Assembly: GCA_027460535.1 (NCBI GenBank)
Contig: JAPZAR010000035.1
Coordinates: 1,414-33,413, forward strand
Source: Candidatus Methanoperedens sp.
Lineage (GTDB): Archaea > Halobacteriota > Methanosarcinia > Methanosarcinales > Methanoperedenaceae
Length of the DNA: 32,000 bases
Direction: 5' to 3'
Positions 4,454 through 15,878 of the stretch are shown here, one piece after another. The translations under genes and the position numbers were made by a program. Numbering within the stretch: position 1 is the first letter of the stretch; every line of letters begins with the position of its first letter. A model generated the notes under the pieces. The model saw nothing but the letters and a program-made list of their open reading frames with translations. It did no database searches and was not told where the DNA came from.

Positions 4454-5089
4454 TTAAGAAACACTGGTAACGTAAATTATTTCGCAAGAACCGTCTCTCG
4501 TATCATATCTTGTTTGGCTTGTTTTCCACATCCATTTACCATCACCAACAATATATGTTTTGGTCACATCAACTAAGTAGCCCTTAATAGTTACTACATC
4601 ATTTGTTTTAATACTTTTAATTGCATTTGCGATAGAATCATTTGCTGGAATGATATGGTTATTTGACATATGGGATGTTATGTCATCCGATACCGTGCCA
4701 GTGTATCGATATGAGCATATTCTACCGCCCTGACTGTAAACAATATTGCTATCGTTTACTATTTTACCCCATACAACGCATAAATCCACAGGCGATATTC
4801 CAAGTTTGTCATGGTTATAATTGGCTGTGCTTACTACCTTTGCGGATATTTCATAATTTGCTACTGGGATTATTGTGTATGCTTCATAAATATCACTTAT
4901 CGTAAACGTTTTTCCGCTATATGAAGTTTGGATAGGTTCTCCTCCTAAATTACCTGCATTGCCTGAATAAGTTCTTGTCTCTAAATTATTGGCAAAAGCA
5001 CCTTCCATGTAAAGAATTGCTGTTGATGATACAAGAATAAACGTAAAAATTATACCAAAGATTATTATCTTGAACCTTAGATTAGACAT
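4454..5089 (-). CDS. hypothetical protein with N-terminal membrane anchor/signal (orphan, AT-rich)
   Basis: ORF with hydrophobic N-terminus MSNLRFKIIIFGIIFTFILVSSTAIL. Start set at ATG 5089 (track uses GTG 5110). No family recognised. C-terminal DTRDGSCEIIYV. Confidence 0.65.
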   Translation of the reverse strand: MSNLRFKIIIFGIIFTFILVSSTAILYMEGAFANNLETRTYSGNAGNLGGEPIQTSYSGKTFTISDIYEAYTIIPVANYEISAKVVSTANYNHDKLGISPVDLCVVWGKIVNDSNIVYSQGGRICSYRYTGTVSDDITSHMSNNHIIPANDSIANAIKSIKTNDVVTIKGYLVDVTKTYIVGDGKWMWKTSQTRYDTRDGSCEIIYVTSVS

Positions 5090-5291
5090 TATAGTATCTA
5101 CTACTATCACTGAGGATATATATTGTCATCGTTATTACCATTGCCATTTGATAAAGCAGCATTAGACCACTTTCCACCTCTTCCATCTTTCATTCCGTTA
5201 CCAGTTGAATTTCTTAGGTTGTAGGGTGAAGTGACAACAATATCAAGGCCAAAGTTTTTAATACACAATGACATAAATTATTATATATAAA

Positions 5292-7397: not shown

Positions 7398-8426
7398 TTA
7401 ATAATTCTTGATCTTTACTTCATCTACAAGGAATGGCGGATAAAAAATGCCGTTCTCCGTGATAATGGCATTCACATTTTCCATGGGTGTGGCATCAAAT
7501 GCCGGATTATAAACTTCCACATCCAGCGGCGCTATCTGGTGTGTTCCAAAATACCTTAACTCATCAGGTTTTCGAAGTTCGATCTCGATCTCATCCTCAA
7601 GGTGCTCAAAATCGAACGTGGATACTGGTGCAGCAACATAAAACGGTATCCCGTGCTCTTTTGCGACGACGGAATGGGTATACGTTCCTATCTTATTGAA
7701 CACAGCATCCTGGGTGATCCTGTCCGCGCCCACAATGACCTTGTCCACCATTCCTTTTCGCATCACATGGCCCGACATGCTGTCGGTGATAAGCGTGACA
7801 GGTATCTTATCTTCCATCAACTCCCACGTCGTGATGCGGCTGCCCTGGTTCAGGGGTCGCGTCTCGCATGAGATGACTCTGATATCTTTTCCCTGCTCGC
7901 GGGCCGATCTGATGACCCCGAGGGCAGTACCCCAGTCCACGCAGGCAAGCCTGCCCGCATTGCAGTGTGTCATTACAGTATCCCCGTCCTCAAGAAGAGA
8001 AGCTCCGTGTTCACCCATTTGCTTGTTCTTTTCCACATCCTCATCGGCTATTGCTTTTGCTTCATCAAGGGCGAACATTTTTGCCTCTTTAATATTCCTG
8101 GCATCCTCGACCGCCCTGATAACGCGTTTTACTCCCCAGGAGAGATTCACGGCAGTTGGTCTCGTTCCTGTGATAGTTTTTCCGGCAGCTTCGAGGTCAT
8201 TCATTAATCCTTCCAATGAAGATGCGCTGCTTTTATGCGCAGCGAGCGCGATACCGAACCCACCTGCAGCTCCGAGAGCTGGAGCACCTCTTATGCGCAG
8301 CTTGATAATTGCCTCGCATAAAGAATCGATACTATTGCATTCGATCACCAAGTACTCCGCAGGGAGAAGTGTCTGGTCAATCATGACAATATTGCTTTTC
8401 TTATCATCCCAGTCTATTGTCCTCAT
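7398..8426 (-). CDS. mtnA: eIF-2B alpha/beta/delta family isomerase, methylthioribose-1-phosphate isomerase type
   Basis: 342 aa. N-terminus IDWDDKKSNIVMIDQTLLPAEY...IKLRIRGAPALGAAGGFGIALAA and ...VIVGADRI... are typical of MtnA / aIF-2B-like proteins. Confidence 0.85.
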   Translation of the reverse strand: MRTIDWDDKKSNIVMIDQTLLPAEYLVIECNSIDSLCEAIIKLRIRGAPALGAAGGFGIALAAHKSSASSLEGLMNDLEAAGKTITGTRPTAVNLSWGVKRVIRAVEDARNIKEAKMFALDEAKAIADEDVEKNKQMGEHGASLLEDGDTVMTHCNAGRLACVDWGTALGVIRSAREQGKDIRVISCETRPLNQGSRITTWELMEDKIPVTLITDSMSGHVMRKGMVDKVIVGADRITQDAVFNKIGTYTHSVVAKEHGIPFYVAAPVSTFDFEHLEDEIEIELRKPDELRYFGTHQIAPLDVEVYNPAFDATPMENVNAIITENGIFYPPFLVDEVKIKNY

Positions 8427-8493
8427 TGAAATCGGGTTTATATCGAGCCGTCAGATATTTAAGTACTGCCATTATGTTTAACCTCAGAGGAGC

Positions 8494-11163
8494 ATGGTAA
8501 ATAACGAAATTCGGATACTGAACGATCAACCGATAGACCATGAAACATTTTTTAATTTTGACGACTATTCGGATGCTCTGGCAGGAATAATCCTCCATGA
8601 GGATACGAACACACCGCTCGTCATAGGTATATTTGGCGATTGGGGAAGCGGGAAAACAAGCCTGATGAAAACTTTGAAGAAGAAGATCGAAAATGTGAAA
8701 GATGGCCACTCTGCCCAGACTATCTGGTTCAATGCATGGAAATATGATAAAGAGGATGTTATCTCGCGCGCTCTTCTGACTCGAATACTGCAGGAACTAG
8801 AGACTAAGGGCGAAAAAAAGGACGAGAAAATCTTGAATCGAAGACTAAAGGATCTTCAGAGAAGTCTCTACAAGGACGTTTATCGCGAAGATCCCGGCTC
8901 TTTGACTTTTGATCTGGGCAAAGCTAGCAAAGGGGTTCTTAAGCTTGGCCTTTCAACGGTTCCCATCATAGGGGAAGGATTGGCGAAATTATTTGAAAAA
9001 GGTGTTGATAAAGATGCAATTATAGAAATAGCAGAATCATTACATCATGAGAAAATCATCACAAATATAGAAAAAATTGGAGAGCTTGAGCAATTTCAGT
9101 CAACCTTCCGGGAGATAATCAGGGATCATTATATCCAACATAATAAGAGAGCAGTAGTATTTATTGATGACCTGGATCGATGTGTTCCTGATAAAGCAAT
9201 AGAAGTTATGGAAGCCATCAAGCTGTTTCTGGATGTAGAGGGCTGTATCTTTATTTTAGGCATAGACAGGAATGTCATCCGCGAGGGAGTACGAATCAAA
9301 TATAAAGATTTCACATTAGGAGGCATAAAAGTTCCGATCAATGGTGAAGAATATCTGGAAAAGATAATTCAACTGAGTTTTATGCTCCCGCCTATAATGG
9401 AAAATAAGTTAAAAGAATTTATAGATGATCTTGATCAGAAAAAATCGTATAAAGAGTATCACGATATGATTATAAATGGGATCGGAAGGAATCCGCGTAA
9501 GATCAAACGCTTTATCAATGCCATAAGATTCCAGCAAAACCTGGCTGAAATAATTCCTGAAATGAAGGATATTGTCAAAGAGGATATCAAGCAAACATTT
9601 GATGCGCTGCTGATAGAATGGCAAATTATAAGCAGCAGCAGCAATTCTGATTTTGAAAATTTCAGAAAGGAGGTTATTAAAAATCCGGGTCTTCTGATCA
9701 AGAGCCATGATTATGTGGAGAGCCTGAAGTCCGGGAAAAAAGACGAACCTCCCAAAGAGCTAAACCCCTTTTGGAATGATTCAATTAAAGAATTGATATG
9801 GGTATTCCCATATCCAGGGACTCTAAAAGAAGGTGATACAGATATCATCAAAAAGGTAACTCATCTTAGCAATGTAACAGAAACAAAAACAACAATAGAA
9901 ACAGGTGTGGAAGAAACCTGGACACTTGAGAAAGTTAAGGAAGCAATAAAGAAAGGTATGAGTTTGGAAGGGAAAGATTTAAGCGGGCTTTCCTTAAATA
10001 AAATGAATCTAAATGGGGCGAATCTTTCGGGTGCAAAACTTATTAAAACAGACCTTTCTGAAGCAAAATTGGTAGAAGCAAATATCGTGCATACAGATCT
10101 TTCAGGTGCGATACTTATTGGAACAGATCTTTCTAAAGCCAGTCTTGCATATGCGGTTCTTATCCGGGCAAATCTTTCAGAAGCGATTCTGAAAAACGCA
10201 AAACTTCCAAATGCAGATTTCAGTTATGCTATCCTGAATGGAGCAAATCTCACTGAGGCGTACCTAAGCCTTTCTGATTTCTCTTATTCAAATCTTTCAA
10301 AAGCTACACTCACTGGGACCCTCGGTGGTGAAAATAAATTCATAGGGGCTAATTTATCGGGTGCTGATCTTTCTAATGCAGACCTAACAGACGCGAAACT
10401 TTCAGATGCAAACCTTTCTGGATTAGACCTCACTAATGTACCCCTCAGTGGAGCAGATCTTTCTAATGCAAACCTCATTAAAACTAAGCTCCCTGAAGAC
10501 CTCACTCGTACAATCCTAACCGGAGCAGACCTCACGGGAGCCAAACTCTCCGGTTCAACACTCTATGGAGACCTTTCAAGAATAGTACTTAACAATGCAG
10601 AGCTTAATGATATAAAATTCACTGAAATACAAACCCTTTCCGGAGCGAAAATTAAAGGAGCGAAAATAGGCAAATCTGATCTCTCTGGGTTGGATCTTTC
10701 AAATGTGGATTTCTCCAATACAGATCTAATTGAAACTAACCTGAATAAAACAAACCTCTCCAAAGCCATCCTGATAGACGCCAAACTATTCAATGCAAAA
10801 CTTCAACATGCAAACCTTTCAAATGCAAACCTTTCTAATGCGAAGCTCTCCGGATCAGACTTTTATTATGCAGATCTTTCCAATGCATCTCTTATTGGTG
10901 CAGATATATCCGGAACAGACCTGTCGTATGCAACATTGATAAAAATAAAAACCACACGAATTAAAGTCAATGAAAATACAAATGCAAGAGATGTGATTTT
11001 GGTTATGGATGAAGATCCCCAGGATGAAGCCAAAATAAAGAGAGCTCTGGATGATATAGATAAGGGATTAAGGGATATAATTATCAAACAAAATGAGCGT
11101 TACCGCAATATCTATTCTGGTTCAGAACCTGCCTCTGCCATTCCTGGTAAAGCAAAAAAATGA
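8494..11163 (+). CDS. KAP-family P-loop NTPase fused to a very long C-terminal pentapeptide-repeat domain
   Basis: 889 aa. GIFGDWGSGKTSL (Walker A), FNAWKYD and VVFIDDLDRC (Walker B) are KAP hallmarks. Residues ~493-815 are continuous A(D/N)LxX pentapeptides. Confidence 0.88.
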   Translation: MVNNEIRILNDQPIDHETFFNFDDYSDALAGIILHEDTNTPLVIGIFGDWGSGKTSLMKTLKKKIENVKDGHSAQTIWFNAWKYDKEDVISRALLTRILQELETKGEKKDEKILNRRLKDLQRSLYKDVYREDPGSLTFDLGKASKGVLKLGLSTVPIIGEGLAKLFEKGVDKDAIIEIAESLHHEKIITNIEKIGELEQFQSTFREIIRDHYIQHNKRAVVFIDDLDRCVPDKAIEVMEAIKLFLDVEGCIFILGIDRNVIREGVRIKYKDFTLGGIKVPINGEEYLEKIIQLSFMLPPIMENKLKEFIDDLDQKKSYKEYHDMIINGIGRNPRKIKRFINAIRFQQNLAEIIPEMKDIVKEDIKQTFDALLIEWQIISSSSNSDFENFRKEVIKNPGLLIKSHDYVESLKSGKKDEPPKELNPFWNDSIKELIWVFPYPGTLKEGDTDIIKKVTHLSNVTETKTTIETGVEETWTLEKVKEAIKKGMSLEGKDLSGLSLNKMNLNGANLSGAKLIKTDLSEAKLVEANIVHTDLSGAILIGTDLSKASLAYAVLIRANLSEAILKNAKLPNADFSYAILNGANLTEAYLSLSDFSYSNLSKATLTGTLGGENKFIGANLSGADLSNADLTDAKLSDANLSGLDLTNVPLSGADLSNANLIKTKLPEDLTRTILTGADLTGAKLSGSTLYGDLSRIVLNNAELNDIKFTEIQTLSGAKIKGAKIGKSDLSGLDLSNVDFSNTDLIETNLNKTNLSKAILIDAKLFNAKLQHANLSNANLSNAKLSGSDFYYADLSNASLIGADISGTDLSYATLIKIKTTRIKVNENTNARDVILVMDEDPQDEAKIKRALDDIDKGLRDIIIKQNERYRNIYSGSEPASAIPGKAKK
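9970..10940 (+). repeat. 15-nt-periodic coding repeat tract (pentapeptide repeats) inside the KAP gene
   Basis: Reiterated gcagatctttc(t/c)aatgca-type units encoding ...ANLSGADLSNADLTDAKLSDANLSG... Boundaries are approximate. Confidence 0.85.
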
Positions 11164-11759
11164 TTGTCCTGAAACTCGGCGGAAGCCTTATGCACAGGGT
11201 AAAAGAACTCATAAAGGAGATAATAGATTATTCTAACGAAAGCAAGGATACGATATTGATAGTCCCTGGCGGCTCCATCTTCGCAGATACAGTGAGAAGT
11301 GTGAAAGCCTCGCAGGAAGCTTCCCACTGGATGGCTGTCCTCGCTATGGAACAATATGGTTATTTCTTATCTGATGGAAACGATGCGAAACTCATTGATA
11401 ACCTGGATATAGAAGGTTCAGGTACGTATATTCTTCTCCCCTACAACATTCTGAAAAAGATTGATGAACTCCGACATACTTGGGATGTCACATCAGACAC
11501 GATCGCCGCCTGGGTCGCCCTTCAACTAAATGCAAGGTTCATAAAAGCCACGGATGTGGATGGGATATATCTCAATGGCATGCTGGTGAAGGAAATTTCC
11601 GCGCGTGAAATCACAGGGAAAGAAACCTGTGTGGATGCAGAGCTTCCTGTTTTTCTCATGAAGAATAAAATGAATTGCGAGATAATCAATGGTAACTGCC
11701 CCGGAAGACTGGGCAGGGCTTTTTCGGGTGATGCAGCAGGGACGATTATTAAAGGTTGA
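11160..11759 (+). CDS. small amino-acid-kinase-fold kinase, MfnE-like (methanofuran biosynthesis type)
   Basis: 199 aa. MIVLKLGGSL, LIVPGGSIFADTVR, HTWDVTSDTIAAW, ATDVDGIY. Start overlaps the KAP gene stop (ATGA at 11160-11163). Confidence 0.75.
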   Translation: MIVLKLGGSLMHRVKELIKEIIDYSNESKDTILIVPGGSIFADTVRSVKASQEASHWMAVLAMEQYGYFLSDGNDAKLIDNLDIEGSGTYILLPYNILKKIDELRHTWDVTSDTIAAWVALQLNARFIKATDVDGIYLNGMLVKEISAREITGKETCVDAELPVFLMKNKMNCEIINGNCPGRLGRAFSGDAAGTIIKG

Positions 11760-15387: not shown

Positions 15388-15612
15388 TTATGCAATTGCC
15401 TTATGCTTTGGCTTTTTTCCCTTGATTTCGTAGAGAAAAGCCTGCGGTTCGGAAATATTTTCAGATGCGTCAAGCATTTCTATTGCCACAACTTTGTTAT
15501 CTTCCCCATAATCCACGATAAGACCTTCTCTGACCTCATCGCTTTCTTTAACAGCTACTTCCCTTAAAATCAAAGTAAGTGAATCTGTTTGCGGGTCATA
15601 TACTATCTTCAT
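15388..15612 (-). CDS. DUF2283-family protein (putative antitoxin partner)
   Basis: 74 aa. MKIVYDPQTDSLTLILRE...IVDYGEDNKVVAIEMLDAS matches the DUF2283 pattern. Start overlaps the upstream gene stop (ATGA). Confidence 0.8.
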   Translation of the reverse strand: MKIVYDPQTDSLTLILREVAVKESDEVREGLIVDYGEDNKVVAIEMLDASENISEPQAFLYEIKGKKPKHKAIA

Positions 15613-15878
15613 TTCAAATCCTCTTTCCAGTATTTTTCAATTTTTGATGTTTTATAAATAGTAATAACATGAAATGCATTTTTCAACTTTTCACCGATTA
15701 TTCGAAGTAACATTTCCTTTTTTTCGTTATTATCATAATATCTTCCCTGCATAATAATTCTATTCTTTTTGGAAGGTATTTTCTGCAAAGTATGTTTGAT
15801 AATTCGCTCTACATCCTCTTTCTTGATTTTGCGGATTTCCATTTCAAAAAGTGCATGTTCGGAAAAAACAATTTTCAT
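15609..15878 (-). CDS. DUF4258-family protein (putative toxin partner)
   Basis: 89 aa. FSEHALFEMEIRKIKKEDVERII...HVITIYKTS is DUF4258-like. 4-nt overlap with the DUF2283 gene. Confidence 0.78.
   Translation of the reverse strand: MKIVFSEHALFEMEIRKIKKEDVERIIKHTLQKIPSKKNRIIMQGRYYDNNEKKEMLLRIIGEKLKNAFHVITIYKTSKIEKYWKEDLK

What the first reader, a model, noticed from the sequence alone, without database searches (positions are those of the whole stretch)
8494..11163. KAP P-loop NTPase fused to a ~320-residue pentapeptide-repeat domain in one polypeptide
Seen: a single uninterrupted 889-codon ORF.
- The N-terminal third carries KAP hallmarks: GIFGDWGSGKTSL, FNAWKYD, VVFIDDLDRC.
- Residues ~493-815 are an unbroken run of A(D/N)LxX pentapeptides, roughly 60 units (approximate count by eye).
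- A charged helical tail follows.

Established: KAP NTPases are STAND-related, sporadically distributed ATPases often found in accessory or conflict loci. Pentapeptide-repeat proteins (MfpA, Qnr, AlbG) form right-handed quadrilateral beta-helices that mimic B-DNA and bind DNA-manipulating enzymes.

Inference: this could be an NTP-driven switch coupled to a very long DNA-mimic rod. That would suit a sensor or decoy aimed at DNA-targeting enzymes of mobile elements, or a novel scaffold. I do not recognise this fusion as a described system.

The gene looks AT-richer than its neighbours by eye. Its stop overlaps the start of the MfnE-like gene (ATGA), so an accessory-looking gene is translationally coupled to a core gene.
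Basis: partly seen in the sequence, partly recalled or inferred. Interest (0 to 1): 0.68.

Follow-up and report, generated by a model that had tools for sequence, protein, structure and literature searches.

The report
Archaeal KAP ATPase–pentapeptide-repeat accessory gene
A methane-oxidising archaeon (Candidatus Methanoperedens) carries an accessory gene that fuses a KAP-type ATPase, a kind recently shown to protect bacteria from viruses, to a long pentapeptide-repeat beta-helix; the gene was dropped between a housekeeping gene and its promoter, and is most likely an uncharacterised single-gene immune protein rather than part of core metabolism.

Summary
Window 8494-11163 (+) is one 889-codon ORF with a KAP_NTPase domain (E=2e-43), intact Walker A/B motifs and about 60 pentapeptide repeats (E=1e-79).

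- **Structure:** AlphaFold2 gives two beta-helical segments separated by a disordered break, not one unbroken rod. It also gives a helical tail and no membrane helix.
- **Origin:** The window is from Candidatus Methanoperedens. In the other 24 Methanoperedens loci that hold both genes, 23 have the flanking IF-2B-family and MfnE-like genes directly adjacent. Only the window and one other species carry this gene, between the old mfnE promoter and the mfnE start codon.
- **Evolution:** The gene is AT-rich (GC3 0.35 versus 0.47-0.57). It evolves 1.6-2.9 times faster than its flanks but stays under purifying selection.
- **Context:** It has no conserved partner gene in 14 loci. This refutes a methanofuran or housekeeping role.
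- **Family:** At least 46 protein clusters share the fusion. All named ones are Methanosarcinales-type archaea, and they form one clade. The sister clade carries FGE/C-type-lectin domains.
- **Relatives:** The KAP half resembles QatA, PifA and PDC-S20 by sequence and the RADAR ring ATPase RdrA by fold. KAP fusions with variable C-termini were shown to be antiphage in 2026.

Best reading: a stand-alone, ATP-dependent conflict protein with a pentapeptide target-binding module. The DNA-mimic idea is untested and weakly disfavoured. I rate it a new variant of a known kind, of moderate interest.

The parts
8455..8470 (+). Ancestral mfnE promoter element (TATA-like ATATTTAAG followed by ACTGCC), now upstream of the KAP-pentapeptide gene
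   Evidence: The same element sits about 30 nt upstream of the mfnE ATG in empty-site genomes (L014, L015, L050, L018, L022, L025, L065, L053). It sits upstream of the KAP gene in the window and in L026. Promoter function is inferred, not tested.
8487..8492 (+). Shine-Dalgarno-like GAGGAG immediately upstream of the ATG at 8494; it is part of the inserted sequence
   Evidence: Read directly from the sequence. It is absent from the empty sites.
8494..11163 (+). KAP NTPase-pentapeptide repeat gene (889 aa)
   Evidence: ORF. Pfam KAP_NTPase E=2e-43 and Pentapeptide E=1e-79. Identical protein found on 5 contigs.
8557..9540 (+). KAP-family P-loop NTPase core (aa 22-349). Walker A is at 8626-8661 and Walker B at 9148-9183. 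An NPRKIKRF motif lies at aa 333-340.
   Evidence: Pfam. G45, G51, G53, K54, D225, D226, D228, R229, P334 and K338 are invariant in 66 relatives. The KAP-only AlphaFold2 model has pLDDT 86 and pTM 0.79. Best solved-structure matches are RdrA, then Orc1/Cdc6.
8869..9078 (+). Insertion between Walker A and Walker B (aa 126-195): a beta-hairpin stalk plus a flexible helical sub-domain. This is the position where other KAP proteins carry transmembrane helices.
   Evidence: AlphaFold2 secondary structure and low pLDDT of 41-67. No membrane-grade hydrophobic window: maximum KD(19) is 1.59, and that lies at aa 239-257, just after Walker B (helix end and the next core strand). The comparison with other KAP proteins rests on my own knowledge of Aravind et al. 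2004 and on EF_KAP in PMC13552941.
9541..9873 (+). Alpha-helical domain following the NTPase core (aa 350-460)
   Evidence: AlphaFold2 helices 355-460 with pLDDT 79-96. W376 is invariant in the family.
9961..10488 (+). Pentapeptide beta-helix segment 1 (aa 490-665, about 35 units, about 9 coils)
   Evidence: In-register pentapeptides. pLDDT is above 90 for 490-610 and mostly 85-92 (one block 78) for 620-665, with a short dip at 612-614. Foldseek matches to HetL, Np275/276, Qnr, MfpA and AlbG.
10489..10521 (+). Break in the repeat array (aa 666-676): register shift and predicted disorder
10522..10983 (+). Pentapeptide beta-helix segment 2 (aa 677-830). Residues 677-730 are irregular and of lower confidence; 730-830 are regular.
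   Evidence: Pentapeptide_4 best stretch 734-809 and Pentapeptide_3 771-814.
10984..11160 (+). Charged C-terminal helical tail (aa 831-889). The last codons (GKAKK) derive from the old mfnE 5' leader.
   Evidence: Helices 844-875. Right-junction comparison with L026 and the empty sites.
11160..11759 (+). MfnE-like amino-acid-kinase gene (199 aa). Its ATG overlaps the KAP gene's TGA (ATGA at 11160-11163), and it is now the second cistron.
   Evidence: AA_kinase E=5e-15. Best NCBIfam match is MfnE at 142 bits, below the equivalog cut-off of 300. Orthologues are 66-75% identical over 199 aa. NCBI calls the 199-aa start.
7398..8426 (-). IF-2B-family gene (MtnA / ribose-1,5-bisphosphate isomerase-like). 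It is the divergent left neighbour that defines the insertion site.
   Evidence: Pfam IF-2B E=7e-90. 80-90% identical in about 40 Methanoperedens genomes.

Best explanation
This is a stand-alone accessory gene of Candidatus Methanoperedens. It encodes a soluble KAP-family, STAND/AAA+-like ATPase fused to a long pentapeptide-repeat beta-helix. It most likely acts as a single-protein conflict (anti-virus or anti-mobile-element) module.

**Shown**
- The NTPase motifs are intact and invariant across the family.
- The fusion is one old clade confined, as far as source names go, to Methanosarcinales-type archaea.
- This copy lies between the ancestral mfnE promoter and the mfnE start codon. It is present in only two Methanoperedens species.
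- It is AT-rich and fast-evolving but under purifying selection.
- No partner gene is conserved.

**Inferred**
- By analogy with KAP fusion proteins shown to need both Walker B and the C-terminal region for phage defence, and with the ring-forming RdrA fold, the ATPase assembles or switches in an ATP-dependent way.
- The variable-length repeat beta-helix is the module that binds a target. The target could be an invader protein, or a DNA-handling enzyme that the helix sequesters.
- The protein has no recognisable enzymatic effector. The output is therefore either target sequestration by the beta-helices, NTP turnover, or an effector encoded elsewhere.
- The ATGA overlap with mfnE is a by-product of the insertion. 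The TAA stop seen in the orthologue was lost, so mfnE, which has no ribosome-binding site of its own, is probably translated by termination-reinitiation.
For: - **Domains and motifs:**
- **Defence ATPase matches over the KAP domain:** QatA 4e-39, PDC-S20 1e-35 and PifA 2e-34.
- **Fold:** the best solved match of the KAP half is the RADAR ATPase RdrA (E=3e-6, TMq 0.40-0.43), followed by Orc1/Cdc6, BrxC and an NLR. RdrA is a heptameric ring (PMC9994260).
- **Experimental precedent:** KAP NTPases fused to diverse C-terminal regions protect against phage, and both Walker B and the C-terminal region are required (PMC13552941). KAP can replace STAND NTPases in conflict systems (PMC8195603).
- **Sister clade:** it carries FGE/C-type-lectin domains like those of DGR-diversified antigen sensors.
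- **Modularity:** a KAP+DUF498 variant is nested inside the pentapeptide-fused clade.
- **Accessory status:** of the 25 other Methanoperedens loci that hold both flanking genes, 23 have them adjacent with a gap of about 55 bp, one (L034) has a different insert, and only L026 has the KAP gene. The nearest relatives by flanking genes lack it.
- **Single event:** the window and L026 share junction sequence.
- **Composition:** GC3 0.35 against 0.47-0.57.
- **Rate:** dN is 0.287 against 0.098 and 0.184 for the flanks, with dN/dS below 1.
- **Paralogues:** two copies occur in one genome.
- **No conserved neighbour** in 14 loci.
- **Defence-type neighbourhoods in some loci:** a type I R-M operon plus a toxin-antitoxin pair next to P0030; a RAMP gene near P0006; an HTH_3/Peptidase_M78 pair near P0037; AIPR and DUF2283/DUF4258 genes elsewhere in the window.
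Against: - No functional test exists for any member of this family.
- There is no recognisable effector domain and no transmembrane helix. The tested EF_KAP has two.
- Most contexts are ordinary housekeeping neighbourhoods rather than defence islands.
- Sequence similarity to QatA, PifA and PDC-S20 covers only the shared KAP domain. The QatA equivalog cut-off is missed by a wide margin (158 against 600 bits).
- The RdrA structural match is modest (TM about 0.4, 12% identity).
- KAP proteins also have non-immune roles in eukaryotes (Kidins220/ARMS), and pentapeptide proteins have many roles.
- No close relatives were found on plasmids, phages or viral contigs. The donor and the means of insertion are unknown, and there are no terminal repeats.
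Confidence: 0.55

Rival explanations
1. NTP-gated DNA mimic. The pentapeptide beta-helix imitates B-DNA and binds a topoisomerase, gyrase or other DNA-handling enzyme of the host or of an invader. The fused ATPase regulates this, much as the GTPase MfpB regulates MfpA in mycobacteria. It overlaps with the best explanation if the target belongs to an invader.
For: - The repeat half matches MfpA, Qnr, AlbG and EfsQnr structures and Qnr/MfpA sequence models at E of 1e-18 to 1e-28.
- Each of the two beta-helix segments (about 8-9 coils) is about the size of one MfpA or Qnr monomer (plus my own knowledge of those structures).
- There is a precedent for NTPase control of a pentapeptide gyrase inhibitor (PMC3575795).
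- The net charge of the repeat region is mildly negative, -7 over 309 aa.
Against: - All Qnr and MfpA model scores are far below their family cut-offs (99.7 against 240; 66 against 360). The similarity is generic to pentapeptide repeats: HetL, Np275/276 and designed solenoids score better.
- Repeat number varies 3.5-fold in the family, and net charge ranges from +3 to -16. This does not fit a surface tuned to mimic a fixed length of DNA.
- The rod is interrupted by a disordered break.
- A patchy, accessory distribution does not suit a regulator of an essential host enzyme.
Confidence: 0.12
2. A non-immune cellular role. The protein could be an ATP-dependent scaffold or regulator of a lineage-specific process in ANME or Methanosarcinales archaea, with the pentapeptide helix as a general protein-protein interaction surface. 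HetL in cyanobacterial differentiation is an example of such a role.
For: - The best repeat matches include HetL and Alr5209-type proteins.
- Many family members sit among housekeeping genes.
- A second locus next to giant surface proteins is conserved between two Methanoperedens genomes.
- The gene is under purifying selection and is fixed in its population.
- It has no effector domain.
Against: - Presence is patchy even among close species.
- The composition is foreign.
- It evolves faster than its flanks.
- Paralogues occur in variable copy number.
- The C-terminal module can be swapped (FGE, DUF498).
- The nearest characterised KAP relatives by sequence and fold are all defence proteins.
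Confidence: 0.2
3. A housekeeping partner of MfnE in methanofuran biosynthesis, implied by the translationally coupled operon.
For: - The ATGA overlap with the MfnE-like gene.
- The closest orthologue occupies the same position.
Against: - In 23 of the 25 other Methanoperedens loci that hold both genes, mfnE sits directly next to the IF-2B gene with its own promoter and no KAP gene.
- Twelve further family loci, representing about ten distinct contexts, have no AA-kinase neighbour.
- The linkage is explained by a single insertion between the promoter and the start codon.
Confidence: 0.02
4. A hitch-hiking or decaying remnant of a mobile element with no current function.
For: - AT-rich composition.
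- Lies at a site that holds a different cargo gene in L034.
Against: - The 889-codon ORF is intact.
- The catalytic motifs are invariant.
- dN/dS is about 0.2 between orthologues.
- It is fixed in the population.
- It is driven by a housekeeping promoter and has its own ribosome-binding site.
Confidence: 0.04

Closest known systems
Single-polypeptide KAP P-loop NTPase antiphage proteins (EF_KAP and three metagenomic examples; PMC13552941, 2026)
   Same: A KAP NTPase at the N-terminus is fused to a variable C-terminal region in one protein. They act alone as accessory genes. The Walker motifs are intact.
   Different: The tested proteins are bacterial (Enterococcus and gut Firmicutes). EF_KAP has two transmembrane helices, and their C-terminal regions have no known fold. 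Here the protein is archaeal and predicted to be soluble, and its C-terminal module is a recognisable pentapeptide beta-helix.
RdrA, the ATPase of the RADAR anti-phage system (PDB 8hr8, 8fnt)
   Same: It is the best solved structural match to the KAP half. Both have an AAA+-like core with helical insertions followed by an alpha-helical lobe. RdrA is a defence protein that forms a heptameric ring.
   Different: Identity is 12% and TM about 0.4. There is no RdrA hit in PADLOC. No RdrB deaminase partner is present. RdrA has no pentapeptide domain.
QatA (Qat system), PifA (F plasmid) and PDC-S20 candidates: KAP-type defence ATPases
   Same: They share the KAP NTPase domain, with E-values of 4e-39, 2e-34 and 1e-35.
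   Different: The matches cover only the first 45-60% of those profiles. The QatA equivalog score is 158 against a cut-off of 600. No qatBCD genes are nearby. The C-terminal halves are unrelated.
KAP NTPase + FGE-sulfatase / C-type-lectin proteins of Chloroflexi (the class of DGR-diversified 'antigen sensors', PMC10907252)
   Same: This is the nearest KAP clade by sequence, at 35-45% identity over the NTPase. The layout is the same: KAP domain, helical domain, then a variable binding module.
   Different: The C-terminal module has a different fold, matching FGE, TvpA and Mtd. These proteins are bacterial. No DGR or reverse transcriptase was looked for or seen near the archaeal genes.
MfpA, Qnr and AlbG pentapeptide DNA mimics, and the MfpB-MfpA pair
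   Same: They share the right-handed quadrilateral beta-helix fold. MfpB-MfpA is a precedent for NTPase control of such a protein.
   Different: Scores are far below the family cut-offs. Here the array is fused rather than operonic and has about 16 coils in two segments, against about 8. Length and charge vary across the family, and the distribution is accessory.
STAND / NLR-like antiviral ATPases (Avs, bacterial NACHT) with C-terminal repeat sensors
   Same: The logic of a central NTPase followed by a C-terminal repeat array matches. There is a weak NB-ARC hit of 24 bits, and an NLR appears among the fold matches.
   Different: The NTPase belongs to the KAP clade, not the STAND clade proper. 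There is no N-terminal effector domain. The repeats are pentapeptide rather than TPR, WD40 or LRR.

Membership tests
KAP family P-loop NTPases (Pfam PF07693) | Significant match to the KAP_NTPase model above the curated cut-off | tested here: met
   E=2.3e-43, 149 bits against a cut-off of 20, covering aa 22-349 and profile positions 1-291 of 293.
KAP family P-loop NTPases (Pfam PF07693) | Intact Walker A (GxxGxGKT/S) and Walker B (hhhhDD) motifs | tested here: met
   GDWGSGKTS and VVFIDDLDRC are present. G45, G51, G53, K54, D225 and D226 are invariant in 66 relatives.
KAP family P-loop NTPases (Pfam PF07693) | Transmembrane helices inserted within the NTPase domain. This is typical of the family as first described (Aravind et al. 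2004, my own knowledge) but is not universal. | tested here: not met
   No 19-residue window reaches membrane-grade hydropathy; the maximum is 1.59, at aa 239-257, just after Walker B (helix end and the next core strand). The insert at aa 126-195 is predicted as a beta-hairpin plus short amphipathic helices. No dedicated transmembrane predictor was available.
Pentapeptide repeat proteins (Pfam PF00805, PF13599, PF13576) | Tandem A(D/N)LxX units above the curated cut-offs | tested here: met
   Pentapeptide 262 bits against 20.2; Pentapeptide_4 110 against 38; Pentapeptide_3 67 against 27. 58 of 70 units fit the strict pattern.
Pentapeptide repeat proteins (Pfam PF00805, PF13599, PF13576) | Right-handed quadrilateral beta-helix fold | tested here: met
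   This is a prediction only. AlphaFold2 gives one short strand every 5 residues. pLDDT is above 90 over 490-610 and mostly 85-92 (one block 78) over 620-665, and 89-97 over 730-830. Foldseek probability is 1.00 to HetL, Np275/276, QnrB1, AlbG and MfpA. The helix is in two segments with a break at 666-676.
KAP NTPase fusion antiphage proteins (PMC13552941) | One polypeptide with an N-terminal KAP NTPase and a C-terminal non-NTPase region, acting alone | tested here: met
   Architecture. No conserved neighbour in 14 loci.
KAP NTPase fusion antiphage proteins (PMC13552941) | Confers protection against phage or virus that depends on Walker B and on the C-terminal region | not testable with these tools
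   This needs a heterologous expression and challenge experiment.
QatA (Qat anti-phage system ATPase) | Full-length match above the NCBIfam equivalog cut-off | tested here: not met
   158.6 bits against a cut-off of 600. The match covers profile positions 25-293 of 628 only.
QatA (Qat anti-phage system ATPase) | Encoded together with qatB, qatC (QueC-like) and qatD (TatD-like) | tested here: not met
   The neighbours are an IF-2B-family gene, an AA-kinase gene, Alba and PurH.
MfpA / Qnr DNA-mimic pentapeptide proteins | Score above the family cut-offs | tested here: not met
   Qnr family 99.7 against 240; MfpA 66.1 against 360; QnrB 81.4 against 460.
MfpA / Qnr DNA-mimic pentapeptide proteins | A conserved, strongly acidic surface of DNA-like dimensions, and binding to gyrase or a topoisomerase | tested here: inconclusive
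   Only net charge could be computed. It is -7 over 309 aa here and ranges from +3 to -16 in relatives, and the repeat number ranges from 28 to 101 units. Surface electrostatics and binding were not tested.
RADAR RdrA | Sequence membership and an adjacent RdrB adenosine deaminase | tested here: not met
   No RdrA model hit in PADLOC. No PDB sequence hit, even with a profile. No deaminase neighbour. The resemblance is at the fold level only.
MfnE ([5-(aminomethyl)furan-3-yl]methyl phosphate kinase), for the downstream gene | Score above the NCBIfam equivalog cut-off | tested here: not met
   142 bits against a cut-off of 300. MfnE is the best-scoring family and the match covers the full length. 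The gene is therefore called 'MfnE-like'.

The most novel reading that the evidence does not exclude
An archaeal single-protein immune device of a new mechanistic type. In this reading an ATP-driven, RdrA-like KAP ring displays long pentapeptide beta-helices as nucleotide-gated DNA decoys. The decoys trap DNA-handling enzymes (polymerases, nucleases, topoisomerases, terminases) of the viruses, plasmids or Borg elements that infect methane-oxidising Methanoperedens. Immunity would then come from sequestration rather than from an enzymatic effector.
Probability: 0.1. Interest if true: 0.75.

Novelty: new variant of a known kind. Interest (0 to 1): 0.48.

Why it matters
- **Understudied hosts.** Defence systems of archaea, and of the uncultured methane-oxidising ANME and Methanoperedens lineages in particular, are poorly charted. 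Yet these organisms host plasmids, viruses and Borg elements.
- **A testable case for an open question.** KAP NTPase fusions were validated experimentally as antiphage proteins only in 2026, and their C-terminal regions had no recognisable fold. This family pairs the same ATPase with a well-understood beta-helical module. It could show what the variable C-terminus of KAP defence proteins does: sensing, or sequestering a target.
- **A clean example of gene capture.** An accessory gene has taken over a housekeeping promoter and forced the core gene into translational coupling. The site looks like an insertion hotspot in Methanoperedens genomes.

Tried and rejected
1. **Methanofuran or housekeeping linkage.** Rejected. 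23 of the 25 other Methanoperedens loci with both genes have IF-2B and mfnE adjacent with no KAP gene.
2. **A conserved partner or effector gene.** I clustered 100 flanking ORFs from 14 loci by all-against-all comparison. Only the two syntenic pairs recurred.
3. **Origin on a known mobile element.**
   - Plasmid hits are 23-30% identical and cover the KAP domain only.
   - The full-length query has no plasmid record covering at least 80% of it.
   - Only 3 distant phage hits were found.
   - IMG/VR gave 18 distant KAP proteins at 22-38% identity.
   - BFVD gave only a Megaviridae KAP protein.
   - The paper on Methanoperedens plasmids mentions two pentapeptide proteins but no KAP.
   - No donor was identified.
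4. **Terminal repeats or a target-site duplication at the insertion.** None is convincing.
5. **Recent repeat expansion.** The internal DNA repeats are only 60-73% identical, so the array is old.
6. **A solved KAP structure by sequence.** None was found with the single sequence or with a 66-sequence profile.
7. **Taxon names through cluster look-up.** No names are held, so the taxonomic range rests on the few named hits.
8. **Metagenome scan for more family loci.** It returned mostly distant KAP proteins. Six loci matched through the repeat region, and five of them had usable flanks for the clustering in item 2.
9. **The 2004 KAP family paper.** It is not held. Statements about it are from my own knowledge.
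10. **dN/dS.** dS is saturated (above 1, or undefined), so only the relative dN values and the qualitative 'below 1' are used.

Full report
**1. The observation**

Window 8494-11163 (+) is an uninterrupted 889-codon ORF. Pfam finds KAP_NTPase over aa 22-349 (E=2.3e-43). It also finds Pentapeptide (E=1.1e-79, 12 stretches), Pentapeptide_4 and Pentapeptide_3, all above their curated cut-offs.

In aa 481-835, 58 of 70 five-residue units fit a strict pentapeptide pattern. 'About 60 units' is therefore right. The run is not unbroken, however.
- There is a one-residue register shift at aa 666-676.
- There is an irregular stretch at about aa 690-730.

The gene is AT-rich. Its GC3 is 0.346, against 0.47-0.57 for the flanking genes. 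The orthologue in another genome shows the same contrast. The TGA stop overlaps the ATG of the MfnE-like gene. That 199-aa start is supported by the MfnE profile, by the orthologues and by NCBI's annotation. Two other gene callers chose a start 30 nt downstream.

**2. Predicted structure**

The full-length AlphaFold2 model has mean pLDDT 80 and pTM 0.45. The KAP-only model has pLDDT 86 and pTM 0.79. Together they give this layout:
- A P-loop core (aa 22-350). It carries a beta-hairpin and flexible helical insertion between Walker A and Walker B (aa 126-195).
- An alpha-helical domain (aa 355-460).
- A disordered linker.
- A first beta-helix (aa 490-665, pLDDT above 90 to residue 610 and mostly 85-92 (one block 78) after a dip at 612-614).
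- A disordered break (aa 666-676).
- A second beta-helix (aa 677-830, with lower confidence for 677-730).
- Three C-terminal helices (aa 844-875).

No segment reaches membrane-grade hydropathy. This KAP protein therefore lacks the transmembrane insert typical of the family. That typical feature is my own knowledge of Aravind et al. 2004, a paper the library does not hold.

Foldseek matches the repeat half to HetL, Np275/276, designed solenoids, QnrB1, AlbG and MfpA. It matches the KAP half best to RdrA, the heptameric ATPase of the RADAR anti-phage system (E about 3e-6, TMq 0.40-0.43). Orc1/Cdc6, BrxC and a plant NLR follow. RdrA's structure is described in PMC9994260. No solved structure is detectable by sequence for the KAP half, even with a 66-sequence profile.

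**3. Where the gene sits and how it got there**

The left neighbour is an IF-2B-family gene on the minus strand. It is 80-90% identical to its orthologues in about 40 Candidatus Methanoperedens genomes, which identifies the organism. The window most likely comes from GCA_027460495.1, contig JAPZAT010000061.1.

I ran tblastn with the window's proteins against all 78 fetched loci.
- 25 of the fetched loci hold both the IF-2B and the MfnE-like gene.
- In 23 of them the two genes are directly adjacent and divergent, about 55 bp apart.
- L034 (M. nitroreducens Mnv1) has a different 1.27-kb insert at the site.
- Only L026, which lies on the same contig as protein P0002, has the KAP-pentapeptide gene between them, as the window does.

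Junction comparison shows three things.
- The conserved TATA-like element (ATATTTAA...CTGCC) precedes mfnE in the empty sites. It now precedes the KAP gene in both occupied genomes.
- The window and L026 share the sequence just beyond that element. This points to a single insertion event, or to the same cassette entering the same site twice.
- In L026 a TAA stop lies 7 nt before the mfnE ATG. In the window that stop is lost, and the ORF reads through the old leader to give the ATGA overlap.

The inserted gene brings its own GAGGAG ribosome-binding site. The mfnE gene has none. I therefore infer that mfnE is now translated by termination-reinitiation.

Other points about the site:
- No terminal repeats or target-site duplication mark the boundaries.
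- The L034 insert encodes an unrelated 342-aa protein. It is flanked by a duplicated promoter and a fragment of the IF-2B 5' end. The site therefore looks like a hotspot.
- In a tree built from the two flanking genes, the window, L026, the empty L014 and L034 fall in one clade.
- Every contig that encodes the identical IF-2B protein and extends far enough also carries the KAP gene. The insertion is fixed in this population.

**4. Rate and selection**

I compared the window with L026.

| Gene | Amino-acid identity | dN |
|---|---|---|
| KAP-pentapeptide | 59% | 0.287 |
| IF-2B | 84% | 0.098 |
| MfnE-like | 73% | 0.184 |

Amino-acid change is therefore 1.6-2.9 times faster in the inserted gene. 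Overall dN/dS stays near 0.2. dS is saturated, so only the qualitative conclusion holds: the gene evolves fast but is kept by selection. The catalytic residues are invariant in 36 and in 66 relatives.

**5. The family**

Among the best 120 hits in a 5.8-billion-protein collection, 46 clusters combine KAP_NTPase with Pentapeptide. All the named ones come from Methanoperedens, Methanococcoides, Methanogaster or unclassified Methanosarcinales.
- Repeat number ranges from about 28 to 101 units.
- Net charge of the repeat region ranges from +3 to -16.
- A tree of the KAP domain alone puts all the pentapeptide-fused proteins in one clade. A KAP+DUF498 variant is nested inside it.
- The sister clade is large and comes from Chloroflexi. 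It is 35-45% identical in the NTPase and carries an FGE-sulfatase / C-type-lectin domain instead. That domain matches the DGR variable proteins TvpA and Mtd in a profile search of the PDB.

The layout is therefore a constant KAP-plus-helical module with an exchangeable C-terminal binding module.

Contexts of other members differ from one another. They include ADP-forming acetyl-CoA synthetase genes, RAMP and beta-CASP genes, giant surface proteins, PPDK and CdhD, an ABC transporter, and a type I R-M operon with a toxin-antitoxin pair. One Methanoperedens assembly has two paralogues. Clustering 100 flanking ORFs from 14 loci found no recurrent neighbour beyond the two syntenic pairs.

No close relative occurs in 72,556 plasmids, 50,697 phage records or IMG/VR.

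**6. Interpretation**

PADLOC matches the KAP domain to QatA, PDC-S20 and PifA. These matches cover the shared NTPase only, and the QatA equivalog cut-off is missed.

The literature supplies the framework.
- KAP ATPases can replace STAND NTPases in predicted conflict systems (PMC8195603).
- Pentapeptide repeats and FGS domains recur as variable modules in such systems (PMC7159879).
- KAP NTPases occur among DGR-diversified 'antigen sensors' (PMC10907252).
- In 2026, single-polypeptide KAP NTPases with diverse C-terminal regions were shown to block phage, and both Walker B and the C-terminus were required (PMC13552941).

Combined with the accessory, fast-evolving and compositionally foreign nature of the gene, the best reading is a stand-alone, ATP-dependent conflict protein. 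Its pentapeptide beta-helix would be the target-binding module, acting as sensor or sequestering module. The ATPase would assemble in an RdrA-like manner. Only the anatomy and the evolutionary pattern are shown. The immune function, the oligomerisation and the role of the repeats are inferred. I put this reading at about 0.55.

**7. Rivals**

- **DNA mimic.** This reading has a real precedent in the MfpB-MfpA pair (PMC3575795), and the fold fits. Four points weaken it:
  - the interrupted rod;
  - the 3.5-fold variation in repeat number;
  - the variable charge;
  - family-model scores far below their cut-offs.
- **Non-immune scaffold or regulator.** This cannot be excluded. There is no effector domain, and most contexts are not defence islands.
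- **Role in methanofuran synthesis.** This is effectively refuted.
- **Functionless remnant.** The intact motifs and purifying selection argue against this.

**8. Novelty and score**

I found no description of the exact KAP-pentapeptide fusion in the searchable literature. It is, however, a family rather than a singleton, and it fits a class that is now supported by experiment. I rate it a new variant of a known kind: archaeal, soluble, and with a defined beta-helical C-terminal module.

Interest is moderate (0.48). It offers a structurally interpretable case for working out what the variable C-terminus of KAP defence proteins does. It also gives a neat example of promoter capture with forced translational coupling of a core gene.

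Noticed in passing
window 20596-21789 (-): A 397-aa AIPR (abortive-infection-type) protein, Pfam E=6e-20, with very low GC3 (0.281). It is a second compositionally foreign, defence-type gene about 9.4 kb from the KAP gene.
   Followed up: partly
window ~15388-15878 (-): A small DUF2283 + DUF4258 gene pair that looks like a toxin-antitoxin pair, in a low-GC patch. Coordinates were transferred from L001 16803-17293.
   Followed up: no
window 4454-5110 (-): A 218-aa ORF with the lowest GC3 in the window (0.265) and no Pfam match. A 55-aa ORF follows it. It may be another accessory insertion between the DEAD-box helicase and RNR genes.
   Followed up: partly
L034 5805-6833 (-) (Candidatus Methanoperedens nitroreducens Mnv1): The same IF-2B | mfnE intergenic site holds a different cargo: a 342-aa protein with hydrophobic ends and no Pfam match. 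It is flanked by a duplicated copy of the promoter and a fragment of the IF-2B 5' end. This suggests the site is an insertion or recombination hotspot.
   Followed up: partly
P0044-P0120 (proteins): A large sister clade of KAP NTPases in Chloroflexi/Anaerolineae is fused to FGE-sulfatase / C-type-lectin domains. Those domains match the DGR variable proteins TvpA and Mtd in a PDB profile search. I did not check whether DGR reverse transcriptases lie nearby.
   Followed up: no
P0058 / P0061: KAP NTPase + DUF498 proteins (541 aa) are nested inside the pentapeptide-fused KAP clade. This is a C-terminal module swap within the archaeal lineage.
   Followed up: partly
L010 / L094 (P0022, P0014): A second conserved locus holds a KAP-pentapeptide paralogue in Methanoperedens. 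It lies 78 nt downstream of a gene for a surface-type protein of about 1,280 aa (CarboxypepD_reg-like) and near another of about 1,470 aa.
   Followed up: no
window 11160-11190: Gene callers disagree on the mfnE start. ENA and Logan give 189 aa and NCBI gives 199 aa. Only the 199-aa version keeps the conserved KLGGS phosphate-binding motif of the amino-acid-kinase family.
   Followed up: yes
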